A stretch of DNA of 32,000 nt, from positions 636,962 to 668,961 of the forward strand of contig NZ_AP019769.1 in assembly GCF_023169545.1 (NCBI RefSeq). The letters are read 5' to 3'. Below are positions 13,835 to 30,944 of the stretch, in pieces; position 1 is the first letter of the stretch; each line of letters starts with the position of its first letter. This stretch comes from Nanobdella aerobiophila (lineage in GTDB: Archaea; Nanobdellota; Nanobdellia; Nanobdellales; Nanobdellaceae). The notes under the pieces were generated by a model. That model did no database searches, had not been told where the DNA came from, and saw nothing but the letters and a program-made list of their open reading frames with translations. The translations under genes and the position numbers were made by a program.

Positions 13835-14387
13835 TTATTATATGGACTATCATTATAGATAAATATCTCCACTCTTAACTGAAATTTTCTGCTTCTTCTA
13901 GAAAATATATTATATACCAGATTTCATATCTCCATAGAGAATTCTCAATTTACTATCTAACTATATTTTCACATTTATCAGGTACTTGAAGTATTTTTGA
14001 GTCTCCCCCAATACCCTAGCTCTACTAGTCTTACAGAATATATAGTTCATAAATTTCCTTCACACAATGTCTTCCACATATTAGCTTGTCATATATTAAA
14101 TTATAGATAATTATGCAGATTTACTTCTATATAACTACTTGTGAATAACTTCATTTATATAGATCTATTTATAAACTATTCCAGTAAGATTTATATATTT
14201 TATTTATAAATTTTTCTAATAGAAAACTTTATATTTACCAAAAGCGTATCATAATATGTCCGATTATTTTTATAGAAAATTTTATATAAAAGATATATAA
14301 AGAAAGAATTAATCATAAAAAATAAATCTTATAAAGAGTATTACCTTTCAATCATTATACGTTAAATAATATTTATTAAACCGTATA

Positions 14388-14501: not shown

Positions 14502-17246
14502 TTATGCCAAGATACATTCGGACCAGCCGCAATCTAAACAGGTAATACATCCACCCTCATGCTTTAATCTTACACTTTTACAAACAGGGCAATTATCTGT
14601 AGATATATTATCATTAAAATTATTATTATTATTTAATTCCAACTTTCTAATTTCTAAATTTATTTTTATATCCCCAATATTCATCTCTGTATACCATTTT
14701 GGTAAATCTATCTTAAAGCTTTTTAATATACTTATAGTTTTATTCTCTATTTTTCCTTCCCTAATTAACCTAAAGTAATCCTTAAATCTCGATTTTGTTG
14801 CTTCCGCAGGTGCATAATATACTTGTACAGACTTTGAACCATCTCTATATATTGTAATTCCCTTACATCCCACTTTATATGCAAATAAATAAGCTAAATA
14901 TATATCTTCAGATGTTGCCCAGCTTGGCATATTTATTGTCTTAGATATTGATGTTGTTATCCATATCTGTGCTACTGCTTGCGCTCTAATATGGTCCCAC
15001 CATGGTAGATCTAATGCTGTAATAAATATCGCCTTTAAATCATCTGGTATTGAATCTATATTATATAAACTACCTCCATTATCAGATATTTGCTTCAAAA
15101 TTTCTTCTTTATATAAACCCTTCTCCTTTAACTGTCTTTCAAATTCTATATCCACATAGAAATAATTACCTGCAGTAACTCTTTTTTCATATACTAAAGA
15201 ATATGCAGGTTCTATACCAGAAGAAGTTTCTACTAGCATAGAAATAGAACCTGTTGGTGCTATCGAAGTAACTTCTACATTTCTTATACCATTTTCCAAT
15301 ATTTCATTCCTTATCTTTTCCCAATCTAGATTCCATAATTCTTTGTGGTAATATCCATCTACTGGCATCTCTCCATCTTTATAAGATGTTTCGTTATATT
15401 TTGGAAATACACCCCTTTCCTTTGCCCTATATATAGATTCTTCCATTGAATAGTATGTTAAATATTCTGTAATTTTCATTAAGAGTCTGTATCCTTCTTC
15501 TGATGAGTAAGGTATTTTTAGAGCAAATAATGCATCAGCTAAACCCATATAACCTAATCCAACTCTTCTTACTGCCTTAGAAGATTCTTCTATCTCTTTT
15601 AATGGATATTTATTCATATCTATTACATTATCCAAAAATCTGTACGACCATCTTATAGTTTCTATATACTTATCCCAATTGAATTCCGCTTTTCCATCTT
15701 TAAATTCTATCATTGCATATAAATTAATTGATCCTAAATTACAAGACTCATATGGATATAAAGGTTGTTCTCCACATGGATTGGTTGCTCTTATTGGACC
15801 TCTATATTTATATTGCATATTTCTTTTATTTATATTATCCATAAATAAACATCCAGGATCTGCTTTTTCCCATGCTACATAAGAAATCTCCGATAATAGT
15901 TGTTTTGGATCTATATAGTTTACTATTACTTCCTTATCAACTTTATCTATATCAAAGCCTTGTTCGTCTGGAAATTTTATATTGTGTTTCCTTAATAATC
16001 TTGGATTTAATAATGGATATGGTTTATTTTCTGCCAGATAATTCCAAAAATTCGAATCAAACATTACAGATATATTAAAATTTTCTAATACTCCTTCTTT
16101 CTCTTTAGCATGTACAAACTTCATAATATCTGGATGCCAAGATTCGATTATCCCCATATTTGCACCTCTCCTTTTGCCACCTTGCTTAACTACATCTGTA
16201 ACTGTATCAATTATTTTCATAAAAGATATTGGACCTGAAGCTATTCCACCTGTGGACCCTACAACATCACCTTCAGGTCTTAATTTAGAATAATTTATTC
16301 CTATACCCCCACCTGACTTAAATATCATTGCCGCATCTGTAGCAGACTTCATAATAGAAGCCATATCATCATCTATATCCAATACAAAACATGCTGATAA
16401 TTGCCCCAATCTTGCACCGGCATTAAATAGTGTAGGTGAATTTGGCATAAATTTCTTAGAAGCCATTAAATCAAAATATTTCAGATAGTTCTCATAGTAT
16501 TGATCAAAATCTCCATTATTTAACCTTTTTATAAATTCTGACCATGAAATCTTCATATGCCCCCTCTCATTTAAATAATCATAAAGATATTTCATTCTTT
16601 CAAGATGATATTTATTCCACTTTAATTTATAAGAATTTCCTTGTTTTTTTAGCCCAATCTCTCCTTCTTCTAGATTCAATTCTTCTTTTGGTTTTATATC
16701 TTGCTTTCCAGATTTGTCATATATCCTTTCATCATACAATATATCTGGTATTACTATCAATGCTGCGACCCTTTCAAACATTTGTTTAGGTCCTTCTAAT
16801 ATTTGTAATTTCTCGTCTTTTAATAGATATCTATTTACCATTAACCTTATTGAATTCAGAGAATATTTCTTCGCTACTTCCTCTTCATAAAAGCTTCCTA
16901 ATAAATTTATTTTTTCTTTTCTTATATTCTCTTTCTCTTTTCTATAAGTTATGTATGCTTTTGCCACTTCATATAAATCAAATTTAACCAGAGTTAATTC
17001 TACAATATCTTGTATTTCTTCAACAGAAGGGATAGAATTTCCATCATATTTATTTTCTATAATATTTAATATATAATCTAATATCTTGTCTAGAGTTTCT
17101 TTATCATATCTTTTTGTCGCTCTCATAGCTTTCTCAATAGCATTATATATTCTTTTTGGATCGAATTCATCTATTCTTCCATCCCTTTTTCTAATCTTTT
17201 TTACCGATATATTTGAAAAATTTTTTTGACTAAAATTGTTTTCCAT
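14502..17246 (-). CDS. nrdJ: Ribonucleoside-triphosphate/diphosphate reductase, class II (adenosylcobalamin-dependent), with an N-terminal ATP-cone and a C-terminal Cys4 zinc ribbon
   Basis: ATP-cone VKKIRKRDGRIDEFDPKRIYNAIEKAM; the active-site block TNPCGEQPLYPYESCNLGSINL; SACFVL; and the C-terminal CPVCKSVRLKHEGGCITCLDCGWSEC. The ORF is contiguous with no intein-like insertion. Confidence 0.9.
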   Translation of the reverse strand: MENNFSQKNFSNISVKKIRKRDGRIDEFDPKRIYNAIEKAMRATKRYDKETLDKILDYILNIIENKYDGNSIPSVEEIQDIVELTLVKFDLYEVAKAYITYRKEKENIRKEKINLLGSFYEEEVAKKYSLNSIRLMVNRYLLKDEKLQILEGPKQMFERVAALIVIPDILYDERIYDKSGKQDIKPKEELNLEEGEIGLKKQGNSYKLKWNKYHLERMKYLYDYLNERGHMKISWSEFIKRLNNGDFDQYYENYLKYFDLMASKKFMPNSPTLFNAGARLGQLSACFVLDIDDDMASIMKSATDAAMIFKSGGGIGINYSKLRPEGDVVGSTGGIASGPISFMKIIDTVTDVVKQGGKRRGANMGIIESWHPDIMKFVHAKEKEGVLENFNISVMFDSNFWNYLAENKPYPLLNPRLLRKHNIKFPDEQGFDIDKVDKEVIVNYIDPKQLLSEISYVAWEKADPGCLFMDNINKRNMQYKYRGPIRATNPCGEQPLYPYESCNLGSINLYAMIEFKDGKAEFNWDKYIETIRWSYRFLDNVIDMNKYPLKEIEESSKAVRRVGLGYMGLADALFALKIPYSSEEGYRLLMKITEYLTYYSMEESIYRAKERGVFPKYNETSYKDGEMPVDGYYHKELWNLDWEKIRNEILENGIRNVEVTSIAPTGSISMLVETSSGIEPAYSLVYEKRVTAGNYFYVDIEFERQLKEKGLYKEEILKQISDNGGSLYNIDSIPDDLKAIFITALDLPWWDHIRAQAVAQIWITTSISKTINMPSWATSEDIYLAYLFAYKVGCKGITIYRDGSKSVQVYYAPAEATKSRFKDYFRLIREGKIENKTISILKSFKIDLPKWYTEMNIGDIKINLEIRKLELNNNNNFNDNISTDNCPVCKSVRLKHEGGCITCLDCGWSECILA

Positions 17247-20289: not shown

Positions 20290-21099
20290 ATGAAAATTGG
20301 TTTGGAGATACATCAGCAGATAAATACTAAAAACAAATTATTCTGTAATTGTAATACAGATCTAAAAGAAGATTATAAATATAGAATTGAAAGAAAATTA
20401 AGAGCTACTTTGAGCGAAACTGGAAAAAAAGATATAGCAGCAGAATATGAAACAATAAAAGATAAAAAATATATATATGAATATGATAAAGATTATGCTT
20501 GTTTAGTAGAATTGGATGAAGAGCCTCCAAAATATATAAATTTAGATGCATTAAAATTTGGAATATTAATTTCCACATATTTTAATATGTACATACCTAG
20601 AGTGTTACAAATTATGAGAAAAATTGTTGTAGACGGATCTAATACATCTGGTTTCCAGAGAACACTATTATTATCATTAGATGGAAAATTAAATTATAAA
20701 AATATAGGAATTGGAACTCTATGTATTGAAGAAGATGCAGCTAGAAAGATAGAAGAAAAAGATGATTATATAATATATAGGCTGGATAGATTAGGAATAC
20801 CATTAATAGAGATATCTACAGATCCCGATATAAAGGATCCAAAAGAAGCAAAAGAAGTAGCCGAATATATTGGATTAATATTAAGGCTATCTGGAAAAGT
20901 AAAAAGGGGTTTAGGAACGATAAGACAAGATCTAAATGTTTCAATAGAAGGAGGGAATAAGGTAGAGATAAAAGGTGTACAGAACTTAAAAATCATTGAT
21001 AAAATTGTAGACCTTGAAGCAAAAAGACAAGAAAAAATTTTAGAACTAATAAATATTGCTAAAGAAAGAGGCATAGAAGGATATGTATTAGAAGAATAG
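20290..21099 (+). CDS. gatE: Glutamyl-tRNA(Gln) amidotransferase subunit E, N-terminal fragment only (269 aa; split gene or truncation)
   Basis: MKIGLEIHQQINTKNKLFCNCNT...CLVELDEEPP...MRKIVVDGSNTSGFQRT...IEEDAARKI...YRLDRLGIPLIEISTDP...KVKRGLGTIRQDLNVSIEGGNKVEIKGVQNL...EAKRQ is collinear with the GatE catalytic cradle. Full-length GatE is about 600+ aa. A TAG at 21097-21099 ends the ORF and the next gene (21132) is unrelated. Confidence 0.85.
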   Translation: MKIGLEIHQQINTKNKLFCNCNTDLKEDYKYRIERKLRATLSETGKKDIAAEYETIKDKKYIYEYDKDYACLVELDEEPPKYINLDALKFGILISTYFNMYIPRVLQIMRKIVVDGSNTSGFQRTLLLSLDGKLNYKNIGIGTLCIEEDAARKIEEKDDYIIYRLDRLGIPLIEISTDPDIKDPKEAKEVAEYIGLILRLSGKVKRGLGTIRQDLNVSIEGGNKVEIKGVQNLKIIDKIVDLEAKRQEKILELINIAKERGIEGYVLEE

Positions 21100-21131: not shown

Positions 21132-21611
21132 ATGAAAAGTCAATTTGGTACTATAATAGTAGAGGTAATATTATTTATAGTAGCTGCTATAGCTGCATAT
21201 ATCTTTGTATCTACTGCTTATACAAATTTAAATGATATAAGTAATGCAGCAACCGCAAACTCAAAATCTTTGGAAAGTCAATTACAAACCTATATAACCA
21301 TAGATTCTTGCGCATATAATAGTTCTACAGATTTATTATATATATATTCAACCAATAGAGGAAATAATGTATTAAATCAAAACTTAACATTATTATTTAT
21401 TAATGGAGTTTTAATAAATAATACAATAATTACCATAGCAAATAGTAATACTGGTACAGCTGCATGGGGTCCTTATGATACTATATTAATAGAATCTAAT
21501 ATAACTCTTAATTCAAATTTTTATAATATAAAGCTAGTTACAGACACTGGTGCTTCTGCAGAAAATATAATATATGTAAATACAACAAGTAATATATGTA
21601 CAATAGAATGA
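21132..21611 (+). CDS. Class III signal peptide protein (type IV pilin / archaellin-fold-like), 159 aa
   Basis: MKSQFG-TIIVEVILFIVAAIAAYIFV has a short charged leader ending in Gly, then a hydrophobic helix. Next comes a sequon-rich beta-type domain (NSS, NLT, NNT, NIT, NTT), and LLYIYSTNRGNNVLNQNLTLLFINGVL resembles archaellin/FlaF/FlaG-type sandwich strands. Confidence 0.6.
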   Translation: MKSQFGTIIVEVILFIVAAIAAYIFVSTAYTNLNDISNAATANSKSLESQLQTYITIDSCAYNSSTDLLYIYSTNRGNNVLNQNLTLLFINGVLINNTIITIANSNTGTAAWGPYDTILIESNITLNSNFYNIKLVTDTGASAENIIYVNTTSNICTIE

Positions 21612-22054
21612 GATCAGACTTAGGATCAATAATAGGAGCAATAATAGGATTTGTTATATTTTCATTATCTTTATTTGCTTTATATTTTATATTAAATAAC
21701 TCTTTTGCATCATATAAATATACTGCAAATTCTATAAATGAAGAAATAAGAAATATTATAGGAGAGAATATTGAATTTTTAGATAATCAAACTACATATA
21801 TAAATCCAAATATTACAATATATAATAATGGAAATAAGGCCTTAGATTTATCTTGTTTTCAATTATATGTAAATGGTTATTATACATCCTTTAATTATAG
21901 CATAAATTATTTATATCCATCAAATTTATTATTACCTGGAGAAAATGCTACCATATATTTTTCAAACAACTATATAGAGAATAATTCTTATAATTATATA
22001 ATATTTATGAGTTGTTATGGAGACAGGTTTCAAACTTTAATATATGTAAGTTGA
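21608..22054 (+). CDS. Class III signal peptide / FlaF-FlaG-like small anchored protein, ~148 aa
   Basis: MRSDLG-SIIGAIIGFVIFSLSLFALYF leader plus helix. ITIYNNGNKALDLSCFQLYVNGYY resembles the archaellin-family beta-sandwich. The ATG at 21608 overlaps the upstream TGA (ATGA); the track's alternative ATG is at 21596. Confidence 0.6.
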   Translation: MRSDLGSIIGAIIGFVIFSLSLFALYFILNNSFASYKYTANSINEEIRNIIGENIEFLDNQTTYINPNITIYNNGNKALDLSCFQLYVNGYYTSFNYSINYLYPSNLLLPGENATIYFSNNYIENNSYNYIIFMSCYGDRFQTLIYVS

Positions 22055-22064
22055 TATATTTAAA

Positions 22065-24032
22065 ATGAGATTACAAGGAGAATCATTAGCGGTAATAATA
22101 TTATTCATTATTGGAGCTATATCAGCTTTTATGCTATATAATATATTAAGACCAAATTATAATTCTTTAACCCCCACTGGAGAATCTATCGCAAATTCAT
22201 TAAGTATTAATTTTCAATTATTAAATTATTATATAACAAATAATACTTTATTTGTATATGTAAAACCATCAGAACCTGTAAATGCATCTCAAGTATTTGC
22301 TATAGTAAATAATAACTCTGCTCTTGTATACCCATATAATTCAAATAATGATATTGTTAATCCAAATCAAAATCAATTATTGTTAATTGTTGATAATTTA
22401 TCTCAAACTTCTTTGGATCAAAATGGCAACTATAAGATAACCATAGGTTTATCAAATGATATAATAGGAATATTTAGTATTAAATATGAATCAAATCCTT
22501 TACAAAAATTCTTTCACCCTATAATAGAAAATAATATTACAAATATAATTAACAATGTAACGACAAACGTAAATAATTATTATGAATTAATATTATATAA
22601 TACGCAATCTATTCCAACTCCAGCACCATTTCAACAAGATATAGCTATATGTAATGGATCTACATCATTAGTACAGAATCCTTATTTTAGTATAGTTGGT
22701 AATGCATCTTCGACAGGTTCAACATCTGCCTCAGTAACATTACCTACAGGTGCTAATATTTATTTATGTAATGGAGGTGATGGAAATGGTGCTTTATCTT
22801 CATATTCCTGGACTGCTCAAGAAACAACACAAAATACTTATGCAAGTTTAGGATATCAAAGTTCTAATGTGTGTTCAGATTCTTCAGGATCTACTGATAT
22901 TGTAGTTGGAGGTGTTGCCATAAATACTAATGAATATGAAAATTTTGTTGGAACAACATTTAATGGTGTAAATTCTTTCTCTTATACATATAATGTAACT
23001 AATACATCTAATGTTGTCATTTCTGTTGCATGTGGATGGTATGCATGCACATCCGTAACATTACCTTCTGGATGCCAAAAGTTATTTGATACCATAGGAG
23101 GAGATACATATGAAACTACGGTAATGGGTGTATGTTATAATCAAACAGCAGGTAGTTATACAGTTTCTGGATCATTAAATGGAGGAGGCTATGTTTCTGT
23201 AGGTATATATGAATTTAGTACAATCCCTCCAAGGTTGAATACATCCCTATCTTATGTAAATAATATTACTTTATATAATGAAATAAATTCTAATGGATCT
23301 AATGTATACTTTTTTTCTAATCCTTCTAATCCTACAGGATCATTATTATATTCTTGGTACGAAGGACAAGAAAATACTAATGGAGTATCATGCGACATTT
23401 GGTGGGTAAATATTAGTAATGGAATACCTGCAAATAGTAATATAACAATATATATGGATATAGGAAATACAAGTACAAATTATTATTCACAATATTATCC
23501 ATATGTAGGTGTATCTTATAATGTTTTAGGAACATTTAATTATGATAATGGTAATTATGTATTTAATTATTATGAAAAATGGGGGAATTTAAGCTCTTTA
23601 CCAGTAGGGTGGAATAATTTAGATTCTGTAAGTGTATCTTTTAGCCAAAATTATACATCTTTTGTTCAAACAAGTTCTAATAACTATTGGTATGGTTTAT
23701 ATTATCCATTATCGAATTCTAATTTACAAAATAGACCTTTGTTATTATTATCATATTATTACTCCTATCCTAACGGAAATACAAACTATTTTGGAATCAC
23801 AAGCCAAACACCAGTAGTCAGTAATACAAATTATTATACATACTATGTAACACAAACATCCCCAGGTTATTATAATAGCTTGTTATATGTTTCTTCTGGA
23901 ACTGCTACAGATACAATAGGATATTTAGTATATGTCCCCGGCAGTATAACTGGTTCTTATTTTAATTTATATTGGACTGCTGTTGCTTCATATCCTCCTA
24001 ATGGAGTTATGCCTGAAGTCTTTATACAATAA
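22065..24032 (+). CDS. Pilin-like N-terminus fused to a large extracellular DUF2341/lectin-like module (655 aa); candidate filament-borne adhesin
   Basis: MRLQG-ESLAVIILFIIGAISAFMLY is class III-like. There are ~180 unique aa, then 472 aa identical to residues of the 25217-29179 protein. These include NVYFFSNPSNPTGSLLYSWYEGQENTNGVSCDIWWVNISNGIPANSNITIYMDIGNTS (the DUF2341-like pattern as I recall it), followed by a ConA/LamG-like Tyr/Asn-rich region. Confidence 0.7.
   Translation: MRLQGESLAVIILFIIGAISAFMLYNILRPNYNSLTPTGESIANSLSINFQLLNYYITNNTLFVYVKPSEPVNASQVFAIVNNNSALVYPYNSNNDIVNPNQNQLLLIVDNLSQTSLDQNGNYKITIGLSNDIIGIFSIKYESNPLQKFFHPIIENNITNIINNVTTNVNNYYELILYNTQSIPTPAPFQQDIAICNGSTSLVQNPYFSIVGNASSTGSTSASVTLPTGANIYLCNGGDGNGALSSYSWTAQETTQNTYASLGYQSSNVCSDSSGSTDIVVGGVAINTNEYENFVGTTFNGVNSFSYTYNVTNTSNVVISVACGWYACTSVTLPSGCQKLFDTIGGDTYETTVMGVCYNQTAGSYTVSGSLNGGGYVSVGIYEFSTIPPRLNTSLSYVNNITLYNEINSNGSNVYFFSNPSNPTGSLLYSWYEGQENTNGVSCDIWWVNISNGIPANSNITIYMDIGNTSTNYYSQYYPYVGVSYNVLGTFNYDNGNYVFNYYEKWGNLSSLPVGWNNLDSVSVSFSQNYTSFVQTSSNNYWYGLYYPLSNSNLQNRPLLLLSYYYSYPNGNTNYFGITSQTPVVSNTNYYTYYVTQTSPGYYNSLLYVSSGTATDTIGYLVYVPGSITGSYFNLYWTAVASYPPNGVMPEVFIQ
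22598..24013 (+). repeat. Copy A of a 1,416-bp perfect direct repeat (in-frame coding)
   Basis: Line-by-line comparison with 25321-26736 (offset 2,723) found no mismatch. The boundaries are set by the first differing bases: 22597 a vs 25320 c, and 24014 t vs 26737 a. Confidence 0.9.
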
Positions 24033-24059
24033 AAATATTTTTATTCATATTTTTATAAT

Positions 24060-24132
24060 GGTCCAGGTAGCCTAGCGGTAAGGCGTCGGGCTGTGGACCC
24101 GAAGATCGGGGGTTCAAATCCCCTCCTGGACC
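24060..24132 (+). tRNA. tRNA-His (anticodon GUG) with genome-encoded G-1
   Basis: G(-1) GTCCAGG TA GCCT AGCGGTA AGGC G TCGGG CTGTGGA CCCGA AGATC GGGGG TTCAAAT CCCCT CCTGGAC C. G-1 lies opposite C73, the tRNA-His hallmark. The 3' end abuts the stop codon of the convergent gene at 24133. Confidence 0.9.
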
Positions 24133-25050
24133 CTAATGCGTTTCCCAGCTAACTGAATATTCATAACCTAATAATTTTTTCATATAATTTTCTATAGAAA
24201 ATTTTTCCTTATTAGTAATCTTACATAGATTATGCGCTAATTTCAAAAATTTAGGATATTGAAAATCTTTATATATTTCTTCCTTTATAATTTCTTTTAA
24301 TTTATTTATATTTATATTATCTAAGCTTTCTAATCTATATATATGATCATTTACTCTGGCTCTAAAATATAATATATTTATGTTCCTATCAAATATATTA
24401 TCATTAATTTTAGACATTAAATACTCTTTCAAATTCTTTTTTACGATATCTGTATAAAATATTTGATTTGGATATATTTTCATTAGGGCAATCATATCTG
24501 ATCTTTCTAAATTATAAATATTCAAATTTAATATTCTTTTAGCTATAGCAATTATTTTTCCGTTATTTATTATATATTTAAAGTTATTCAAATATTCCTC
24601 TTTCCTTTTTTCTATAAGTTCATCGTATATTTTTGTATTAAATTTAGAAAATAATATTGAATCGGATATTATAGATCCATCAAAAAATATATAATTATCA
24701 ATATATTTTGAAGCTAATTTATATTCTAAATTTTTTGCAAATAATGAAGAAACGTCATTTATATCTATTGTATCATTATCCGTCTTAAAAAATATATTTG
24801 GTAATATTTCTATATCATCAATTTTTTCATATATATTATCCGAAACTATTACAGCTCTTGAATATATATAAGAAAAAGGACCTATAATTCCATTTATAAA
24901 TGAAGAATCTATAAAACCATAATTATTCTTATTAATATCTACATCATCTAGATCTAATAATTTTATATTATTTTTTATATAACTATAATCATCAATTTTT
25001 AATTTATTTATCTTTTCTTCTATATTTTTTATTAATTCTCCAGAAATCAT
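24133..25050 (-). CDS. nurA: NurA-domain-like nuclease (tentative), 305 aa
   Basis: GFIDSSF, IFFDGSIISD, KIIAIAKR, ERSDMIALM, ILYFRARVNDHIYRLES and FQYPKFLKLAHNLCKI line up in order with the conserved NurA blocks as I remember them (..DgS.., ..lDGSL.., ..vgv.K.., ..fY.r...v.R.E.., ..YP..L..AH...). This was not verified with an HMM. No herA, mre11 or rad50 is nearby. Confidence 0.55.
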   Translation of the reverse strand: MISGELIKNIEEKINKLKIDDYSYIKNNIKLLDLDDVDINKNNYGFIDSSFINGIIGPFSYIYSRAVIVSDNIYEKIDDIEILPNIFFKTDNDTIDINDVSSLFAKNLEYKLASKYIDNYIFFDGSIISDSILFSKFNTKIYDELIEKRKEEYLNNFKYIINNGKIIAIAKRILNLNIYNLERSDMIALMKIYPNQIFYTDIVKKNLKEYLMSKINDNIFDRNINILYFRARVNDHIYRLESLDNININKLKEIIKEEIYKDFQYPKFLKLAHNLCKITNKEKFSIENYMKKLLGYEYSVSWETH

Positions 25051-25085
25051 AATTATATATAATTATTTAATTATATAAAATATAT

Positions 25086-25144
25086 CCCTGTCTTAGACGA
25101 ACCAATAAGAAAATATGAATATTGGTATCGAAAGACAGGGTACA
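25086..25144 (+). ncRNA. Extended imperfect hairpin followed by ACA; candidate small structured RNA or leader element
   Basis: CCCTGTCTT (25086-25094) pairs with AAGACAGGG (25132-25140). After an internal loop (AGA / A), CGA (25098-25100) pairs with TCG (25128-25130). After a bulged A127, ACCAATA (25101-25107) pairs with TATTGGT (25120-25126) around a 12-nt loop AGAAAATATGAA. T-ACA follows at 25141-25144. This is the most GC-rich stretch of the 166-bp divergent intergenic region. Confidence 0.25.
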
Positions 25145-25216
25145 GAATATAAACAATTTCGTTAATCCAAATTGATAATTAAACTTTTATATTAGCGGAA
25201 ATATTCCTAAGAATTT

Positions 25217-28200
25217 ATGACGATAAAATATAATATCCTTAAATATAGTATATTGTTATTTTCTATTGGATTTATAAGTTTGAGCATAAATTCTCAGAAT
25301 TATTATGCAGTAACATTAACTAATACGCAATCTATTCCAACTCCAGCACCATTTCAACAAGATATAGCTATATGTAATGGATCTACATCATTAGTACAGA
25401 ATCCTTATTTTAGTATAGTTGGTAATGCATCTTCGACAGGTTCAACATCTGCCTCAGTAACATTACCTACAGGTGCTAATATTTATTTATGTAATGGAGG
25501 TGATGGAAATGGTGCTTTATCTTCATATTCCTGGACTGCTCAAGAAACAACACAAAATACTTATGCAAGTTTAGGATATCAAAGTTCTAATGTGTGTTCA
25601 GATTCTTCAGGATCTACTGATATTGTAGTTGGAGGTGTTGCCATAAATACTAATGAATATGAAAATTTTGTTGGAACAACATTTAATGGTGTAAATTCTT
25701 TCTCTTATACATATAATGTAACTAATACATCTAATGTTGTCATTTCTGTTGCATGTGGATGGTATGCATGCACATCCGTAACATTACCTTCTGGATGCCA
25801 AAAGTTATTTGATACCATAGGAGGAGATACATATGAAACTACGGTAATGGGTGTATGTTATAATCAAACAGCAGGTAGTTATACAGTTTCTGGATCATTA
25901 AATGGAGGAGGCTATGTTTCTGTAGGTATATATGAATTTAGTACAATCCCTCCAAGGTTGAATACATCCCTATCTTATGTAAATAATATTACTTTATATA
26001 ATGAAATAAATTCTAATGGATCTAATGTATACTTTTTTTCTAATCCTTCTAATCCTACAGGATCATTATTATATTCTTGGTACGAAGGACAAGAAAATAC
26101 TAATGGAGTATCATGCGACATTTGGTGGGTAAATATTAGTAATGGAATACCTGCAAATAGTAATATAACAATATATATGGATATAGGAAATACAAGTACA
26201 AATTATTATTCACAATATTATCCATATGTAGGTGTATCTTATAATGTTTTAGGAACATTTAATTATGATAATGGTAATTATGTATTTAATTATTATGAAA
26301 AATGGGGGAATTTAAGCTCTTTACCAGTAGGGTGGAATAATTTAGATTCTGTAAGTGTATCTTTTAGCCAAAATTATACATCTTTTGTTCAAACAAGTTC
26401 TAATAACTATTGGTATGGTTTATATTATCCATTATCGAATTCTAATTTACAAAATAGACCTTTGTTATTATTATCATATTATTACTCCTATCCTAACGGA
26501 AATACAAACTATTTTGGAATCACAAGCCAAACACCAGTAGTCAGTAATACAAATTATTATACATACTATGTAACACAAACATCCCCAGGTTATTATAATA
26601 GCTTGTTATATGTTTCTTCTGGAACTGCTACAGATACAATAGGATATTTAGTATATGTCCCCGGCAGTATAACTGGTTCTTATTTTAATTTATATTGGAC
26701 TGCTGTTGCTTCATATCCTCCTAATGGAGTTATGCCATCTATAAATATTTTTTACGCCTCCCCGATATTAAACAGTTTAAATTTCAATCAGAGTATTGTA
26801 AATAGCTATCCTGGACAAAATGCAACAATAGAAGGAACCATATATATAAATAATCCATATAATATTGAAACAAGTATATCATTATCTTGTATTTCTTCGT
26901 CAACTGTTAACTGTTATATACCAAATTATTGTATAACAAACACCAATCAATGTAATTTTAACATAAATGCAAACTCTAATAATATAAGCAATTATTCTAT
27001 AGAAGTTTTAGGAAAAAACCAATTTTCTTCTGTACAAAACAATTTTACTCTAGAGATATTGTCAGCACCTATTAGTATAACAAATATATCTATTAGCCCA
27101 AACACAGAAACAATTGTATCTGGACAATCCCTAACATCAAATATAACAATATATCTAAATAATACATATCAAGGAAATACAATAATACATCTATCTTGTA
27201 ATTCTCCTTCCCCAAATATATATTGTAATATATATCCAAATATAATTACAACAAATAACAATATTACATATTCTGAATTATATATAAACACTTCAGAAAA
27301 TACAACTATGAACAATTACACAATAACAGTTACAGCAAGTAATAGTTATTCTAGTATAAATGGATACGAATATTTAACTGTATATCCATATCCTATTATA
27401 TATATCATATCTCCAAATAATAATACTATAAGTAATTATTATGGACTAAATTTAACATTCTATACAAATTATCCAAATGTAAATATAACAATTAATGGAA
27501 ATACATATAATATAAATGTAACTCCAGGAACAAATACCGTATATTTAAGATATAATAATTCATCAAATGGACTACCTTCATTATATAATATTATACCAAA
27601 TGGAGGAAATATTAGTATAGAATTAAATATAGAATCTCCAACAGGATTAACAAATAATACAGGAATATATAATTACCAACTACCTGCACCAATATTTAAT
27701 GTATCATATACATCTCCAACTCCAAGTAATGGATATATAAGTAATCTATGGTTATTACAAATATATGGAAATGTATATGATAATACAGAAGGTATAGATT
27801 ATTGTAATATACAATTCTTGAATCAATCAAATAATCAATGGGTAACTATATCTAGTTCTACAGAATGTAATGATGTATTTTATAATGGTTTATTACAAGA
27901 ATATTCTAAATATAATGGACAATATTATCAATTATATTATAGAATATATGGATATAATAATTATGGATTATATAATATAACTCCAGAACAAGTTATATAT
28001 TTCTCTCCTAATTCACAAAATATAACTGTAATAAATAATTCATTAACTAATAATCAAATAAATAATATAATACAAGGATCAATAAATAATAATATACCAA
28101 TTGTAGTATTCCCTCAAGGAATATATTTAGTTAATTTAAATATAAATCCACAAGGTAAAAATATAGAATTATTAGGATCTGGAAATGTACTATTTGAGCC

Positions 28201-29179
28201 TGCTAATCCAGGACTACCTGTAATAAATATAGAATCTTCAAATGTAAATATAACTAATATAAATATACAAACTAATTTATTTGCATTAAGATTAACAAAT
28301 GGAACAGTAAATATATATAATTCAAATATAAATTCTGGATTATTTGGTATACAAGTAGAAAATCCATCAATATTAAATATATATAATAGTACAATAAATG
28401 GAAATATAGGAGCAATATATGGAACAGGTACATTCCAGAATTCTACAATAGAGAATTCAAATATACAATCAAGTGTGTGGGGTATATATGATAATAATCC
28501 AGAAAATATTATAATAAATAATAATAATATTAATGCGAATATATTTGGTATAGATTTAGATGGAAATGCGATAAATAATACGATAAATAATAATAATGTT
28601 GATAGTAATATATTTGGTATAAAATTAAATAATGGATATAATAATTATATAGAAAATAATAATATTGATAGTAATATATTTGGTATAGATTTAGGATCAG
28701 GAAATAATTATATATTAAATGATTTAATAAAAGTAGGATCTGTATTTGGATTATATGAAACAAATAATAATTATATTAATAATGTTACAGCATATGGAGG
28801 AATATTCGGACTTAATATATATGGTAATGCATCAAATATATATGATTATAATTCACAGTTAGGTGTAGCTATAAATAATAATGGAACTATAAATAATTTA
28901 ACTGTATCAACAGGAACTATTGATATAAATTATATAGGTTCAGGATTTATTAATAATGCAAATAGTTTTGCAAGTTCAATAATAAATAATACTATACAAT
29001 ATAACTTTGCTTCTGGAATATTATTAATAGGGTCATTAAATGCTAATATTACATTTACAAATATACCTACAGGTAATTATATAATAGAAAAGATAGTAGG
29101 AGGTTCAGGAAATATAATATCTACAAATAATACATTTAGTCCATCCGGTTTTGGTATTTATGCATTGTATTATTCATAA
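25217..29179 (+). CDS. Giant secreted surface protein (1,320 aa): Sec-type signal, DUF2341/lectin-like module, two Ig-like Cys-containing modules, and a parallel beta-helix (PbH1/NosD-like) C-terminal region
   Basis: MTIKYNILKYSILLFSIGFISLSINS-QNYY is a Sec-like signal. Residues ~36-507 are identical to the 22065-24032 protein. Two ~100-aa modules share the pattern PGQ.xT...I.(I/L)NN.Y...I.LSC.S.S...C...NY(S/T)I.V. There are eight or more 22-23-aa repeats of type NNNI(D/N)SNIFGI.L....NN.I. It carries dozens of NxS/T sequons and has no C-terminal TM anchor. Confidence 0.8.
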   Translation: MTIKYNILKYSILLFSIGFISLSINSQNYYAVTLTNTQSIPTPAPFQQDIAICNGSTSLVQNPYFSIVGNASSTGSTSASVTLPTGANIYLCNGGDGNGALSSYSWTAQETTQNTYASLGYQSSNVCSDSSGSTDIVVGGVAINTNEYENFVGTTFNGVNSFSYTYNVTNTSNVVISVACGWYACTSVTLPSGCQKLFDTIGGDTYETTVMGVCYNQTAGSYTVSGSLNGGGYVSVGIYEFSTIPPRLNTSLSYVNNITLYNEINSNGSNVYFFSNPSNPTGSLLYSWYEGQENTNGVSCDIWWVNISNGIPANSNITIYMDIGNTSTNYYSQYYPYVGVSYNVLGTFNYDNGNYVFNYYEKWGNLSSLPVGWNNLDSVSVSFSQNYTSFVQTSSNNYWYGLYYPLSNSNLQNRPLLLLSYYYSYPNGNTNYFGITSQTPVVSNTNYYTYYVTQTSPGYYNSLLYVSSGTATDTIGYLVYVPGSITGSYFNLYWTAVASYPPNGVMPSINIFYASPILNSLNFNQSIVNSYPGQNATIEGTIYINNPYNIETSISLSCISSSTVNCYIPNYCITNTNQCNFNINANSNNISNYSIEVLGKNQFSSVQNNFTLEILSAPISITNISISPNTETIVSGQSLTSNITIYLNNTYQGNTIIHLSCNSPSPNIYCNIYPNIITTNNNITYSELYINTSENTTMNNYTITVTASNSYSSINGYEYLTVYPYPIIYIISPNNNTISNYYGLNLTFYTNYPNVNITINGNTYNINVTPGTNTVYLRYNNSSNGLPSLYNIIPNGGNISIELNIESPTGLTNNTGIYNYQLPAPIFNVSYTSPTPSNGYISNLWLLQIYGNVYDNTEGIDYCNIQFLNQSNNQWVTISSSTECNDVFYNGLLQEYSKYNGQYYQLYYRIYGYNNYGLYNITPEQVIYFSPNSQNITVINNSLTNNQINNIIQGSINNNIPIVVFPQGIYLVNLNINPQGKNIELLGSGNVLFEPANPGLPVINIESSNVNITNINIQTNLFALRLTNGTVNIYNSNINSGLFGIQVENPSILNIYNSTINGNIGAIYGTGTFQNSTIENSNIQSSVWGIYDNNPENIIINNNNINANIFGIDLDGNAINNTINNNNVDSNIFGIKLNNGYNNYIENNNIDSNIFGIDLGSGNNYILNDLIKVGSVFGLYETNNNYINNVTAYGGIFGLNIYGNASNIYDYNSQLGVAINNNGTINNLTVSTGTIDINYIGSGFINNANSFASSIINNTIQYNFASGILLIGSLNANITFTNIPTGNYIIEKIVGGSGNIISTNNTFSPSGFGIYALYYS
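25321..26736 (+). repeat. Copy B of the 1,416-bp perfect direct repeat (in-frame coding)
   Basis: Identical to 22598-24013. Both the main-frame proteins and the shadow ORFs (26355-26540 vs 23632-23817) are identical. Confidence 0.9.
28319..28862 (+). repeat. Tandem 66-69-nt (22-23-aa) parallel beta-helix repeats inside the giant surface-protein gene (approximate bounds)
   Basis: Successive units are NSNINSGLFGIQVENPSILNIY / NSTINGNIGAIYGTGTFQNSTIE / NSNIQSSVWGIYDNNPENIIIN / NNNINANIFGIDLDGNAINNTI / NNNNVDSNIFGIKLNNGYNNYIE / NNNIDSNIFGIDLGSGNNYILN / DLIKVGSVFGLYETNNNYINN / VTAYGGIFGLNIYGNASNIYD. At DNA level, aatatatttggtata recurs at about 28549, 28608 and 28673. Confidence 0.7.
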
Positions 29180-29247
29180 TTTTTTAATTTCATTATTGAT
29201 ATTATTAATATAAGTTTTAAATTCAAACTTTATAAGTATAAATATAT

Positions 29248-29331
29248 GCCGTGGTGCCCGAGCGGCCCAAGGGGATGGATTGCTAATCCATTCTCCGTAA
29301 GGAGACGTGGGTTCAAATCCCACCCACGGCG
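29248..29331 (+). tRNA. tRNA-Ser (anticodon GCU)
   Basis: GCCGTGG TG CCCG AGCGGCCCAA GGGG ATGGA TTGCTAA TCCAT TCTCCGTAAGGAGAC GTGGG TTCAAAT CCCAC CCACGGC G. It has a long variable arm (CTCC/GGAG stem) and discriminator G73. Confidence 0.9.
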
Positions 29332-29379
29332 TAAAGAACTTATATTAACTTTTAAAATCTTTTAAAATATTTATTACCT

Positions 29380-30211: not shown

Positions 30212-30582
30212 TATATAACTGCCAATAAAGCCCCTCCGTTTTTCTCTTTTTTACATTCTACATTCGTTTTAATTCCTTTGTTTGTTGTTAAAAATAGTAA
30301 TCCCATCCCTCTTGCAGGTAAAAATCTTTTCTCATATTTGTCTATATCTTTATATGATATTGGAAACCTTGGTTTTATTGCTTTACCAAAATTAAACCTA
30401 TCTGAAAATTTTACTATAATTGATTTTCCATCTATATTATAGTTTTCTATATATCCATTGGATTTTAGCTTCTCTAATATAGATAATAATAATTTATTAT
30501 AATAACCGAATCTAACTTCTTTTTTTCCCACATTTATTGAGTTTGTTGCATGTGAGAAGAAATCATTAATTATATCTACCAT
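30208..30582 (-). CDS. rps8p: 30S ribosomal protein S8 (uS8)
   Basis: VGKKEVRF...LLSILEKLKSNGYIENY...GKAIKPRFPISYKDIDKYEKRFLPARGMGLLFLTTNKGIKTNVECKKEKNGGALLAVIY matches archaeal uS8. The conserved S14-S8 order is kept. Confidence 0.9.
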   Translation of the reverse strand: MVDIINDFFSHATNSINVGKKEVRFGYYNKLLLSILEKLKSNGYIENYNIDGKSIIVKFSDRFNFGKAIKPRFPISYKDIDKYEKRFLPARGMGLLFLTTNKGIKTNVECKKEKNGGALLAVIY

Positions 30583-30944
30583 TATTCTCCAGAAACTCTA
30601 AAACCCATTGTCTTTGCCATTTCTCTGAAGCATCTTCCACATATATAAATATTATATCTCCTTATCACTCTATCATGAGAATTGCATATTATACACCTAA
30701 CTGAACCTTTACCAAATTTTCTTTCCTTATTTTCTATACCATACTCCTTTAAAACTTCTATTATAGTTTTATTTTCTTGTATAGACTTATTTACTAGTTC
30801 TTCTATATTTTTTATCTTACCTTCTTTTATTAATTTTCTTATTTCCTCCCTTACGTATTTTGGTGAATTACTCTTTATTATTTTAGTCAATGTTCCTTTT
30901 TTATTTCTTTGTAATTCTACTAAGTATGACCAACTGTTTGGCAT
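30582..30944 (-). CDS. rps14p: 30S ribosomal protein S14 (uS14, zinc-ribbon type) with a ~65-aa N-terminal extension
   Basis: The C-terminal ~55 aa KERKFGKGSVRCIICNSHDRVIRRYNIYICGRCFREMAKTMGFRVSGE is a canonical archaeal S14 (CxxC...CxxC). The ORF continues upstream to the ATG at 30944, with no in-frame ATG/GTG/TTG near the usual start position. Confidence 0.8.
   Translation of the reverse strand: MPNSWSYLVELQRNKKGTLTKIIKSNSPKYVREEIRKLIKEGKIKNIEELVNKSIQENKTIIEVLKEYGIENKERKFGKGSVRCIICNSHDRVIRRYNIYICGRCFREMAKTMGFRVSGE

What the first reader, a model, noticed from the sequence alone, without database searches (positions are those of the whole stretch)
22598..26736. Perfect 1,416-bp direct repeat puts the same 472-aa extracellular module into two neighbouring surface-protein genes
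Regions 22598-24013 and 25321-26736 (offset 2,723 bp) read identically base for base in every line I compared. The main-frame products are identical over 472 aa (NTQSIPTPAPFQQ...ASYPPNGVMP), and so are the out-of-frame shadow ORFs (23632-23817 / 26355-26540). Identity starts and stops abruptly inside both reading frames. About 30 nt upstream the copies are homologous but diverged (NNYYELILY vs QNYYAVTLT). Downstream they are unrelated (EVFIQ-stop vs SINIFYASP...). Zero synonymous divergence, in a compact genome segment with no other long repeat, points to very recent duplication or ongoing gene conversion of an exposed, probably host-facing module. The diverged flank next to a sharp identity boundary looks more like a conversion tract than a simple new duplication. 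Unequal recombination between the copies would also create a pilin-leader::giant-protein chimera while deleting tRNA-His and the NurA-like gene.
Basis: partly seen in the sequence, partly recalled or inferred. Interest (0 to 1): 0.85.

Follow-up and report, generated by a model that had tools for sequence, protein, structure and literature searches.

The report
Adhesin module copied between surface genes
In the tiny genome of the host-attached archaeon Nanobdella aerobiophila, a 1.4-kb stretch coding for a probable host-binding module has very recently been copied from a pilin-like gene into the neighbouring giant surface-protein gene, whose other end is an exact protein-level copy of a third gene, so recombination is actively reshuffling this symbiont's surface proteins.

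Summary
Window 22598-24013 and 25321-26736 are identical over 1,416 bp. The window is Nanobdella aerobiophila MJ1. The two genes are MJ1_0774 (655 aa, archaellin/pilin-like N-terminus) and MJ1_0776 (1,320 aa, signal peptide, Ig-like repeats, right-handed beta-helix).

The shared 472 aa form a composite module. It is a DUF2341-family, lectin-like domain that carries a nested 188-aa cysteine-rich beta-sandwich. The predicted fold of that insert resembles domains in predicted structures of phage proteins, including minor tail proteins.

The best explanation is recent gene conversion from MJ1_0774 into MJ1_0776:
- The insert-bearing module is native to the syntenic orthologues of MJ1_0774.
- Each gene keeps its own subtype-specific residues directly outside both ends of the tract.
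- DUF2341-plus-beta-helix proteins exist in related organisms.

There is also a new result. The C-terminal 494 aa of MJ1_0776 are 100% identical to the distant paralogue MJ1_0451. So 73% of MJ1_0776 is an exact copy of parts of two other genes. Paralogues in the related strain YN1 show a similar mosaic, including a 545-bp perfect tract.

Reads could not be checked, so consensus collapse may exaggerate the "perfect" identity. This is a new example of a known process, not a new mechanism.

The parts
21132..21611 (+). MJ1_0772, an archaellin-like / ArlF-like small protein. First gene of a conserved three-gene cluster.
   Evidence: Pfam Arch_flagellin, E 8e-9. NCBIfam ArlF, E 1.3e-14, below the curated cutoff. 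Same position in YN1 and in MAG KM4331-08.
21596..22054 (+). MJ1_0773, second small protein with an N-terminal hydrophobic helix.
   Evidence: Weak ArlF match, E 7e-4. Conserved in synteny. Kato et al. predicted an archaellin-like structure.
22065..24032 (+). MJ1_0774 (655 aa): archaellin/pilin-like N-terminal helix, a domain of about 150 aa, then the 472-aa module, ending EVFIQ-stop. Inferred donor gene.
   Evidence: 100% match to MJ1_0774. N-terminus similar to MJ1_0772, E 3e-5. Syntenic orthologues P0004 and P0010 have the same architecture and the same ending, PE[IV]FIQ / PQVYIS.
22568..22597 (+). Diverged homologous flank upstream of copy 1 (..NNYYELILY), with the pilin-subtype signature.
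   Evidence: 19/30 nt identical to 25291-25320, empirical P 8e-4. Y at position -1 occurs in 56 of 59 pilin-type family members.
22598..24013 (+). Repeat copy 1 (1,416 bp), encoding the 472-aa module.
   Evidence: Perfect identity with 25321-26736.
22671..23234 (+). Nested 188-aa cysteine-rich beta-sandwich insert (module residues 25-212). The same sequence lies in copy 2 at 25394-25957.
   Evidence: Present only in a subset of the family: P0002-5, P0010, P0037, P0090. Six invariant Cys. AlphaFold model pLDDT 81.6. Foldseek matches to predicted structures of phage proteins, some named minor tail protein, E down to 1e-7, TM about 0.6.
24061..24133 (+). tRNA-His(GTG), lying between the two repeat copies.
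   Evidence: ARAGORN. Same position in L002.
24133..25050 (-). NurA-domain gene, lying between the two repeat copies.
   Evidence: Pfam NurA, E 4e-14. Syntenic in L002 and L005.
25217..29179 (+). MJ1_0776 (1,320 aa): signal peptide, module, Ig-like repeats, right-handed beta-helix. Inferred recipient and mosaic gene. Absent from this position in YN1 and KM4331-08.
   Evidence: P0121 is MJ1_0776. Described as pectin lyase-like by Kato et al.. In L002 and L005 the NurA gene is followed directly by the ribosomal L18 gene, with a tRNA-Ser between them confirmed in L002 only.
25291..25320 (+). Diverged homologous flank upstream of copy 2 (..SQNYYAVTLT), with the signal-peptide-subtype signature.
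   Evidence: T/S at position -1 in 12 of 13 and A/Q at -5 in 11 of 13 Sec-leader family members. Leader resembles P0098, P0013 and P0076.
25321..26736 (+). Repeat copy 2 (1,416 bp).
26737..27694 (+). Part of MJ1_0776 with no exact copy found elsewhere: linker SINIF... and Ig-like repeats. Its last ~107 codons are homologous to MJ1_0451 but differ at scattered sites.
   Evidence: Collinear with Sec-type family proteins across the repeat end. Essentially unalignable with MJ1_0451 up to about residue 720, then 19-29 identical residues per 30-column window with scattered differences.
27695..29176 (+). Second identity tract: residues 827-1320 are identical at protein level to MJ1_0451 residues 639-1132. 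Includes the beta-helix.
   Evidence: Longest identical run 494 aa, reaching the C-terminus. Pfam Beta_helix PF13229, E 1.2e-7, above cutoff. 66-nt periodic repeats at 28241-28705.
29247..29332 (+). tRNA-Ser(GCT), the downstream boundary of the MJ1_0776 position.
   Evidence: A syntenic tRNA-Ser is present in L002.

Best explanation
The repeat is real and records a very recent, non-reciprocal homologous recombination event (gene conversion). The 472-aa extracellular module of the pilin-like gene MJ1_0774 was copied into the neighbouring gene MJ1_0776, 2.7 kb away in the same orientation. It overwrote an older, diverged module of the same DUF2341-type family.

The module is a lectin-like DUF2341-family domain with a 188-aa cysteine-rich beta-sandwich inserted in its first loop. 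It is most likely a host-surface (glycan or S-layer) binding unit.

After the event the same binding unit sits on two scaffolds. One is a protein with an archaellin/pilin-type N-terminal helix, so it is filament- or membrane-anchored. The other is a secreted, heavily glycosylated beta-helix (pectin-lyase-like) protein.

The event is one of several. The C-terminal 494 aa of MJ1_0776 are an exact protein-level copy of the beta-helix end of MJ1_0451. Related genomes also show mosaic paralogues and swapped N-terminal modules.

Shown: the identity, the boundaries, the flank signatures, synteny, the donor's orthology, the second tract, and the domain predictions.
Inferred: the recombination mechanism, its direction, the binding function, and any selective benefit.
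For: 1) Perfect 1,416-bp identity with sharp ends.

2) Diverged but homologous sequence lies just outside the tract. Upstream, 19/30 nt match (P 8e-4). The residues are subtype-specific: MJ1_0774 has ..LILY|NTQ, and Y at -1 occurs in 56 of 59 pilin-type members. MJ1_0776 has SQ.YYAVTLT|NTQ, and T/S at -1 occurs in 12 of 13 signal-peptide-type members. Downstream, MJ1_0774 ends PEVFIQ-stop like its syntenic orthologue P0004 (PEIFIQ). MJ1_0776 continues PSINI like the Sec-type and tandem-module members (PSISI, PSINI, PSIYI).

3) Direction. Among proteins with a complete N-terminus, the 188-aa insert inside a DUF2341-type module occurs only in pilin-type ones. These include the positional orthologues of MJ1_0774 in YN1 (L005) and in MAG KM4331-08 (L002). 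The Sec-type members examined lack it.

4) The recipient architecture is plausible. P0129, P0132 and P0136 combine a DUF2341-type module with the same beta-helix C-terminus.

5) Recombination is recurrent. MJ1_0776 residues 827-1320 equal MJ1_0451 residues 639-1132, and that tract is preceded by about 107 residues that are homologous with scattered differences. YN1_6470 and YN1_8890 share a perfect 545-bp tract followed by alternating blocks of 50-98% identity, in a hybrid Nanopore+Illumina assembly. Different segments of the module have different closest relatives.

6) Function. 10 of 61 family members hit Pfam DUF2341, 9 hit Pilin_N and 5 hit Arch_flagellin. Makarova et al. 2016 proposed DUF2341 proteins in archaeal type IV pilus loci as pilus-tip adhesins, by analogy with PilY. 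The insert model is confident (pLDDT 81.6) and resembles domains in predicted structures of phage proteins, some named minor tail protein. The module contains 13 N-glycosylation sequons and 8 Cys.
Against: - No reads or long-read data could be examined. If the MJ1 genome was closed from short reads, the two copies would be identical by construction, and a few true differences could be hidden.
- The closest beta-helix paralogue (MJ1_0451) and its orthologues (YN1_0200, Nps_01900) have no DUF2341 domain. A pre-existing module in MJ1_0776 is therefore inferred only from 8-9 flank residues upstream and 4-5 downstream.
- The downstream DNA shows no detectable homology, 7/30.
- The module itself gives no Pfam hit, and its DUF2341 half is poorly modelled, pLDDT 30-45.
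- No PDB match was significant.
- MJ1_0776 is missing at this position in both syntenic relatives. Those two are closer to each other than to MJ1, so gain versus loss is unresolved.
Confidence: 0.65

Rival explanations
1. Fresh domain acquisition. A 1.4-kb piece of MJ1_0774 was duplicated and inserted by illegitimate or microhomology-mediated recombination into a beta-helix gene that had no DUF2341-type module before. The family-like flanks are coincidental or come from another source.
For: MJ1_0451, YN1_0200, Nps_01900 and most beta-helix relatives carry a Cys-rich N-terminal domain and no DUF2341 domain. MJ1_0776 is absent from this position in two relatives. No DNA homology is detectable downstream of the tract.
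Against: Both junctions sit exactly at the edges of the family domain, and each is followed or preceded by the family's first or last strand in a diverged, subtype-specific form. The 19/30 nt upstream match is unlikely by chance, P 8e-4. Beta-helix proteins carrying DUF2341-type modules exist elsewhere.
Confidence: 0.17
2. Assembly or consensus artefact. The two copies are truly similar but not identical, or MJ1_0776 is wrongly threaded through collapsed repeats.
For: Reads were not available. The Kato preprint's methods mention MiSeq sequencing done as in the original description, and I could not read how the genome was closed. 73% of MJ1_0776 is identical to other genes. Short-read metagenome contigs of this family break at such repeats; for example, P0007 sits on an 891-bp contig and P0006 lies at a contig end.
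Against: - All four junctions are in frame and give complete, family-typical proteins.
- Direct repeats flanking a unique segment (tRNA-His, NurA, MJ1_0776 leader) have only one traversal that keeps a single chromosome (inference).
- Gene order on both sides of MJ1_0776 matches YN1 and KM4331-08.
- The parts of MJ1_0776 with no exact copy elsewhere (25217-25320 and 26737-27694) must connect to something.
- A comparable perfect tract exists in the hybrid-assembled YN1 genome.
Confidence: 0.08
3. A dedicated, programmed cassette-variation system, like pilE/pilS, vlsE or MgPa. Conserved boundary motifs (NTQ..PFQQDIAICNG and YPPNGVMP) would serve as recombination sites for switching host-binding modules.
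For: The family is large. Its variable interiors lie between two highly conserved motifs, and the tract runs exactly from one motif to the other. Mosaic relationships are seen between segments. Module swapping recurs on beta-helix proteins.
Against: - Both copies are in full-length, apparently functional genes, and no silent cassettes were seen.
- Codon-level conservation of the boundary motifs is no higher than that of internal conserved motifs.
- Adjacent family modules in metagenome contigs are ordinarily 79-86% identical.
- No recombinase or special initiating element lies near the tract among the genes examined.
Confidence: 0.07

Closest known systems
Helicobacter pylori babA/babB/babC adhesin gene conversion (from my own knowledge)
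   Same: Full-length paralogous adhesin genes exchange internal segments by RecA-type gene conversion. This produces chimeric genes in which a binding region is moved onto another gene backbone, and the flanks stay locus-specific.
   Different: That system is bacterial, and the paralogues share their overall architecture. Here the two genes have different scaffolds (pilin-like versus beta-helix), the organism is an archaeon, and no phenotypic switch has been shown.
Mycoplasma genitalium mgpB/mgpC - MgPar recombination (from my own knowledge)
   Same: A host-dependent organism with a very small genome devotes repeated DNA to recombination that reshuffles its attachment proteins.
   Different: MgPar copies are truncated silent donors that generate sequence variation. 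Here the partners are complete genes, and the visible outcome is homogenisation (identity), not variation.
Neisseria pilE/pilS pilin antigenic variation (from my own knowledge)
   Same: Non-reciprocal transfer into a type IV pilin-family gene, bounded by conserved sequence blocks.
   Different: That system needs silent pilS cassettes and a G4-forming initiator and works at high frequency. None of these features was found here.
DUF2341-domain proteins in archaeal type IV pilus loci, proposed as pilus-tip adhesins by analogy with PilY (Makarova et al. 2016, PMC4858521)
   Same: A DUF2341-type domain on proteins encoded next to pilin- or archaellin-like genes, with a predicted adhesin role. The family here is linked to DUF2341 through 10 of 61 homologues.
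   Different: The MJ1 module itself does not reach any Pfam threshold. It carries a nested Cys-rich domain. It is attached directly to an archaellin-like N-terminal helix rather than being a separate large protein.
Diversity-generating retroelements in Nanoarchaeota (Paul et al. 2015, PMC4372165)
   Same: A mechanism that targets surface or ligand-binding proteins of DPANN archaea through repeated sequence pairs.
   Different: From my own knowledge, DGR repeats are about 100-150 bp, differ at adenines, and need a reverse transcriptase. Here the repeat is 1,416 bp with no mismatch.
'Pectin lyase-like' surface proteins MJ1_0451, MJ1_0701 and MJ1_0776 of N. aerobiophila (Kato et al., bioRxiv 10.1101/2023.10.27.564410)
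   Same: It is the same gene. It was already described as a 1,320-aa glycosylated protein with Ig-like folds and a beta-helix, possibly acting on the host cell wall.
   Different: That text does not mention MJ1_0774, the shared module, or the identity with MJ1_0451.

Membership tests
Gene conversion tract between paralogues | A block of identity embedded in older, diverged homology on both sides | tested here: met
   5' side: 19/30 nt, P 8e-4, with subtype-specific residues. 3' side: homology at protein level only, EVFIQ versus SINIF against the family consensus SIYI, so the 3' evidence is weaker.
Gene conversion tract between paralogues | The donor keeps the sequence type of its own orthologues, and the recipient departs from its relatives | tested here: met
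   The insert-bearing module is present in the syntenic orthologues of MJ1_0774. The Sec-type members examined lack the insert, and most beta-helix relatives have no DUF2341-type module at all.
Gene conversion tract between paralogues | The recipient had a homologous segment before the event | tested here: inconclusive
   Inferred from flank residues, and from P0129, P0132 and P0136, which combine a DUF2341-type module with the beta-helix. The nearest paralogue MJ1_0451 lacks it. No close Nanobdella relative is available; the best outside match is 63%.
Gene conversion tract between paralogues | Both copies verified by reads that span the repeat | not testable with these tools
   No read data, and the original genome paper is not in the library.
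DUF2341 (PF10102) / concanavalin-A-like lectin domain | Significant match to the Pfam model | tested here: not met
   The module gives no hit at E <= 1. It is linked only transitively: 10 of 61 homologues hit PF10102, best E 2e-7.
DUF2341 (PF10102) / concanavalin-A-like lectin domain | Beta-sandwich lectin fold | tested here: inconclusive
   The DUF2341 half of the model has pLDDT 30-45. No significant PDB match by fold or by profile.
Archaeal type IV pilin / archaellin-like protein | N-terminal class III signal-type hydrophobic helix recognised by Pilin_N or Arch_flagellin models | tested here: inconclusive
   MJ1_0774 itself gives no hit. Its first 56 aa resemble MJ1_0772, E 3e-5, and MJ1_0772 hits Arch_flagellin. 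9 and 5 of 61 homologues hit Pilin_N and Arch_flagellin respectively. The prepilin-peptidase site was not tested.
Right-handed beta-helix (pectin lyase-like) protein | Match to PF13229 above the gathering score, plus periodic ~22-aa repeats | tested here: met
   PF13229, 31.9 bits against a cutoff of 25.9. 66-nt periodic repeats at 28241-28705.
Programmed cassette-type antigenic variation (pilE/pilS, vlsE, MgPa) | Silent, truncated donor cassettes and many variant copies | tested here: not met
   Both copies lie in complete ORFs with start, leader and stop. No further copies in the window.
Programmed cassette-type antigenic variation (pilE/pilS, vlsE, MgPa) | DNA-level conservation of the boundary sites beyond what the protein requires | tested here: not met
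   Codon homozygosity at the two boundary motifs is similar to that at internal conserved motifs. This test was not corrected for phylogeny.
Diversity-generating retroelement | Template and variable repeat pair differing at adenines, with a reverse transcriptase nearby | tested here: not met
   0 mismatches over 1,416 bp. No reverse transcriptase among the eight neighbouring ORFs scanned.

The most novel reading that the evidence does not exclude
Nanobdellales use general homologous recombination as a routine way to move host-recognition modules between filament-associated proteins and secreted beta-helix (possibly glycan-cutting) proteins. In this reading, what the filament protein binds and what the enzyme attacks are kept matched, and they can be re-matched quickly when the host surface changes. 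MJ1_0776 would be a living example, assembled from a module of the pilin-like gene cluster and a beta-helix from the archaellum gene cluster.
Probability: 0.2. Interest if true: 0.7.

Novelty: new member of a known kind. Interest (0 to 1): 0.5.

Why it matters
How DPANN ectosymbionts recognise and hold on to one specific host is unknown. N. aerobiophila is one of the few cultivated systems in which this can be tested. This locus points to a concrete candidate binding module that is present in two proteins, and so it suggests a direct experiment. It also shows that a 669-kb, host-dependent archaeal genome still actively homogenises and reshuffles parts of its surface-protein genes.

There are two practical consequences:
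- RNA-seq or proteomic quantification of MJ1_0774, MJ1_0776 and MJ1_0451 that discards multi-mapping reads or shared peptides will be biased.
- Short-read MAGs of this group will break or collapse at these genes.

Tried and rejected
- **Fold search of the whole module against PDB, and a profile search of PDB sequences:** nothing significant.
- **DNA of MJ1_0451 and MJ1_0547:** the MJ1 genome is not in the gene-position index. The second tract could therefore be checked only at protein level.
- **Composition as a clue to direction:** GC3 is uniformly 0.04-0.20. The higher GC of the module reflects its amino-acid content, so this is uninformative.
- **Test for special DNA conservation at the two boundary motifs:** no excess over internal motifs.
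- **Search for perfect repeats between adjacent family genes in 87 related loci:** the best were 79-86% identical over 0.35-1.3 kb. Short-read assemblies would not retain perfect repeats, so this is a weak negative.
- **Remnant of the extra family gene of L002 in window 13836-14386:** none found.
- **DGR and integrated-element explanations:** rejected. There are no mismatches, and no reverse transcriptase or integrase among the neighbouring ORFs scanned. MJ1_0776 sits upstream of tRNA-Ser as a single gene.
- **Literature:** no paper found that reports this repeat or gene conversion in Nanobdellota. The original genome paper and the J Bacteriol version are not held.

Full report
**1. The observation**

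At an offset of 2,723 bp the window contains one uninterrupted run of 1,416 identical bases, 22598-24013 = 25321-26736. No other repeat in the window exceeds 66 nt. Both copies lie in long ORFs on the + strand: 22065-24032 (655 aa) and 25217-29179 (1,320 aa). They are read in the same frame and give 472 identical residues. The identical out-of-frame 61-aa ORFs are a by-product of the identity.

The 30 nt directly upstream match at 19/30. Random 30-nt window pairs from the same region average 9.5 matches, and P(>=19) is 8e-4. The 30 nt downstream match at 7/30, which is chance level.

**2. Where the window comes from**

The 655-aa protein is MJ1_0774 of Nanobdella aerobiophila MJ1, a 668,961-bp genome. 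The 1,320-aa protein is MJ1_0776. N. aerobiophila is a cultivated thermoacidophilic ectosymbiont of Metallosphaera sedula.

Kato et al. (bioRxiv 10.1101/2023.10.27.564410) listed MJ1_0776 as one of three "pectin lyase-like" glycosylated surface proteins, and MJ1_0772/0773 as archaellin-like. They mention neither MJ1_0774 nor any shared sequence.

**3. Anatomy of the locus**

The gene order in the window is:
- Memo (-)
- GatB_N
- MJ1_0772, with an Arch_flagellin hit (E 8e-9) and ArlF-like
- MJ1_0773
- MJ1_0774
- tRNA-His
- NurA (-)
- MJ1_0776
- tRNA-Ser
- ribosomal L18, S8, S14
- DUF460

The first 56 residues of MJ1_0774 resemble those of MJ1_0772 (E 3e-5). Among 61 family members scanned, 9 hit Pilin_N and 5 hit Arch_flagellin. 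So MJ1_0774 has an archaellin/pilin-type N-terminal helix, although it gives no Pfam hit itself.

MJ1_0776 has a signal-peptide-like leader, then the module, Ig-like repeats, and a right-handed beta-helix (PF13229, above cutoff). It contains 50 N-x-S/T sequons.

**4. What the module is**

Homologues are very numerous in the Nanopusillaceae, Nanobsidianus and YN1 group: 325 proteins at E <= 0.001 among the candidates scored, and 341 metagenome stretches.

The family domain starts with [YW]Y.[IV].[IL].NTQ..PTP.PFQQDIAICNG. It ends with YPPNGVMP followed by a short SI.I strand. Ten of 61 members hit Pfam DUF2341. The MJ1 module itself hits nothing.

In most members, ICNG runs straight on into ...NFAYINN.TLFN. 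In the MJ1 module, 188 residues are inserted at that point (module residues 25-212). The insert is shared only with P0002-5, P0010, P0037 and P0090, and it has six invariant cysteines.

The insert is modelled confidently as an all-beta sandwich, both inside the whole-module model and on its own (pLDDT 81.6, pTM 0.82).
- Foldseek against predicted viral structures gives 44 matches at E <= 1e-3. These are uncharacterised proteins of tailed phages and "minor tail proteins" of actinophages, with best E 1e-7 and TM about 0.6.
- PDB matches are weak: collagen-binding domains and Tuc2009 BppA.

The C-terminal half of the DUF2341 part is hypervariable between orthologues and is poorly modelled.

Makarova et al. 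2016 proposed DUF2341 proteins in archaeal type IV pilus loci as pilus-tip adhesins. I therefore read the module as a composite binding unit. This is inferred, not shown.

**5. Synteny**

Two relatives keep the same neighbourhood gene for gene: strain YN1 (L005, a complete hybrid assembly) and MAG KM4331-08 (L002). This includes the three-gene cluster that ends in an orthologue of MJ1_0774 (P0004, 743 aa; P0010, 718 aa). In L002, tRNA-His and tRNA-Ser were also confirmed at the same positions.

In both relatives NurA is followed directly by L18, with a tRNA-Ser in between in L002, and there is no MJ1_0776. These two relatives are more similar to each other than to MJ1. So gain in the MJ1 lineage and loss in the other lineage are equally parsimonious.

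**6. Conversion rather than simple duplication, and its direction**

The orthologues P0003, P0004 and P0010 carry the insert and end ...YPPNG[VI]MP[EQ][IV][FY]I[QS]-stop. MJ1_0774 has the same kind of ending (PEVFIQ-stop). The module, with its insert, is therefore native to MJ1_0774.

Outside the tract each gene keeps its own subtype signature:
- The residue before NTQ is Y in 56 of 59 pilin-type members, and MJ1_0774 has Y. It is T or S in 12 of 13 members in which a signal peptide leads straight into the domain, and MJ1_0776 has T.
- The consensus of the signal-peptide-type members is SQ-G-W-Y-A-I-T-I-T. MJ1_0776 reads SQ-N-Y-Y-A-V-T-L-T.
- After the tract MJ1_0776 reads PSINI, like PSISI, PSINI and PSIYI of the signal-peptide-type and tandem members. 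It stays collinear with P0076 for about 60 further residues.

So the identity block sits inside older, diverged homology, and the interior is of the MJ1_0774 type. That is the signature of non-reciprocal recombination from MJ1_0774 into MJ1_0776.

The weak point is that the nearest beta-helix relatives (MJ1_0451, YN1_0200, Nps_01900) have no DUF2341 domain. Their N-terminal domain is instead a distant homologue of the 188-aa insert. However, P0129, P0132 and P0136 in other Nanopusillaceae do combine a DUF2341-type module with the same beta-helix C-terminus. Their sequences diverge from the Cys-rich versions right after a shared ...YYC[VI]AAS. Module swapping on these proteins is therefore recurrent.

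**7. A second tract in the same gene**

Residues 827-1320 of MJ1_0776 (window about 27695-29176) are identical, residue for residue, to residues 639-1132 of MJ1_0451. The preceding ~107 residues are homologous with scattered differences, 19-29 identical per 30-column window. Further upstream the two proteins are essentially unalignable.

MJ1_0451 lies between the archaellin genes MJ1_0449 and MJ1_0453. Its positional orthologue YN1_0200 is likewise flanked by archaellin genes. So MJ1_0451 is the conserved copy, and MJ1_0776 is the extra paralogue.

In total, 966 of the 1,320 residues of MJ1_0776 are exact copies of parts of two other genes. I could not obtain the DNA of MJ1_0451.

**8. The same behaviour elsewhere**

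In YN1, the dispersed paralogues YN1_6470 and YN1_8890 share a perfect 545-bp tract from the start codon. It is followed by alternating blocks of 50-98% identity. That genome is a Nanopore+Illumina hybrid assembly.

Different segments of the MJ1 module have different closest relatives:
- the insert is closest to YN1_6470 (60%);
- the conserved core is closest to YN1_3250 (79%);
- the variable end is closest to P0006/P0007 (57-64%), whereas YN1_3250 reaches only 30% there.

Adjacent family modules on metagenome contigs are 79-86% identical. Perfect repeats would not survive short-read assembly, and P0006 and P0007 do sit at contig ends.

**9. Is it a dedicated system?**

I found no silent cassettes. 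The boundary motifs show no extra synonymous-site conservation compared with internal motifs. There is no reverse transcriptase or recombinase among the neighbouring ORFs scanned. General homologous recombination is sufficient to explain the data. Jarett et al. 2018 note that Nanoarchaeota retain a full recombination and repair gene set, and that their surface proteins carry excess non-synonymous variation.

**10. Artefact?**

I could not inspect reads, and the paper describing the MJ1 assembly is not held.

Arguments for a real structure:
- all four junctions are in frame;
- a direct repeat around a unique segment has only one traversal that keeps a single chromosome (inference);
- synteny holds on both sides of MJ1_0776;
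- MJ1_0776 has stretches with no exact copy found elsewhere.

What remains possible is that a collapsed consensus hides a few true differences between the copies. That would not change the conclusion of a very recent event.

**11. Consequences**

Recombination between the two direct copies would delete 2,723 bp, including tRNA-His and NurA. It would leave an in-frame 1,463-aa fusion gene (logic only). If this tRNA-His is the only one in the genome, which I did not check, such deletions would be lethal, and that would help both copies persist.

**12. Verdict**

This is a new example of a well-known process, gene conversion among paralogous surface or adhesin genes. It occurs in an unusual setting, a 669-kb archaeal ectosymbiont, and I found no published description of it.

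The added findings make it moderately interesting for DPANN biology:
- the donor has been identified;
- the binding module is nested;
- there is a second tract shared with MJ1_0451;
- module swapping recurs in related organisms.

It is not a new kind of system.

Noticed in passing
window 27695-29176: The C-terminal 494 aa of MJ1_0776 are 100% identical at protein level to MJ1_0451, a gene in the archaellum cluster elsewhere in the genome. This is a second long identity tract in the same gene, and it is not visible from the window alone.
   Followed up: partly
window 21132-22054: MJ1_0772 matches NCBIfam ArlF (E 1.3e-14) and ArlG, and MJ1_0773 weakly matches ArlF, all below the curated cutoffs. 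They may be the ArlF/ArlG-like stator proteins, which are not among the ArlBHIJ genes the preprint lists for this genome. The trio with MJ1_0774 is conserved in YN1 and KM4331-08.
   Followed up: partly
L001 10001-12286 and L004 20-2353: The YN1 paralogues YN1_6470 and YN1_8890, about 200 kb apart, share a perfect 545-bp tract from the start codon and then alternate between 50% and 98% identity. The upstream extent could not be read because the gene lies at the end of the record.
   Followed up: partly
They share the leader and about 50 residues, then diverge after 'YYC[VI]AAS' into either a Cys-rich domain or a DUF2341-type module.
   Followed up: partly
window 29247-29332 versus L002 13298-13383: The tRNA-Ser at the same syntenic position has anticodon GCT in MJ1 but GGA in the MAG KM4331-08.
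   Followed up: no
L002 1147-2256 (-); window 13836-14386: KM4331-08 has an extra 369-aa member of the module family between tRNA-Leu and tRNA-Ala. The matching 550-bp spacer in MJ1 holds no trace of it. Family genes seem to come and go next to tRNA genes.
   Followed up: yes
window 20290-21099: A 269-aa ORF holds only the GatB/GatE N-terminal catalytic domain. An ORF of 271 aa holding only this domain is present in both syntenic relatives. It may be a split gene.
   Followed up: no
L005 1-1149 versus window 14502-17246: The ribonucleotide reductase gene of YN1 carries an intein (LAGLIDADG and intein-splicing domains, 1,649 aa). The corresponding position in the window holds a 914-aa ORF, which I did not scan.
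   Followed up: no
window 30582-30944 (-): The ribosomal protein S14 ORF is 120 aa here and in YN1, with an N-terminal extension of about 65 aa. It is called as only 51 aa in KM4331-08.
   Followed up: no
The homologue search with the module did not list MJ1_0776, although that protein is in the database. A third copy of the module elsewhere in the MJ1 genome therefore cannot be excluded from that search alone.
   Followed up: no
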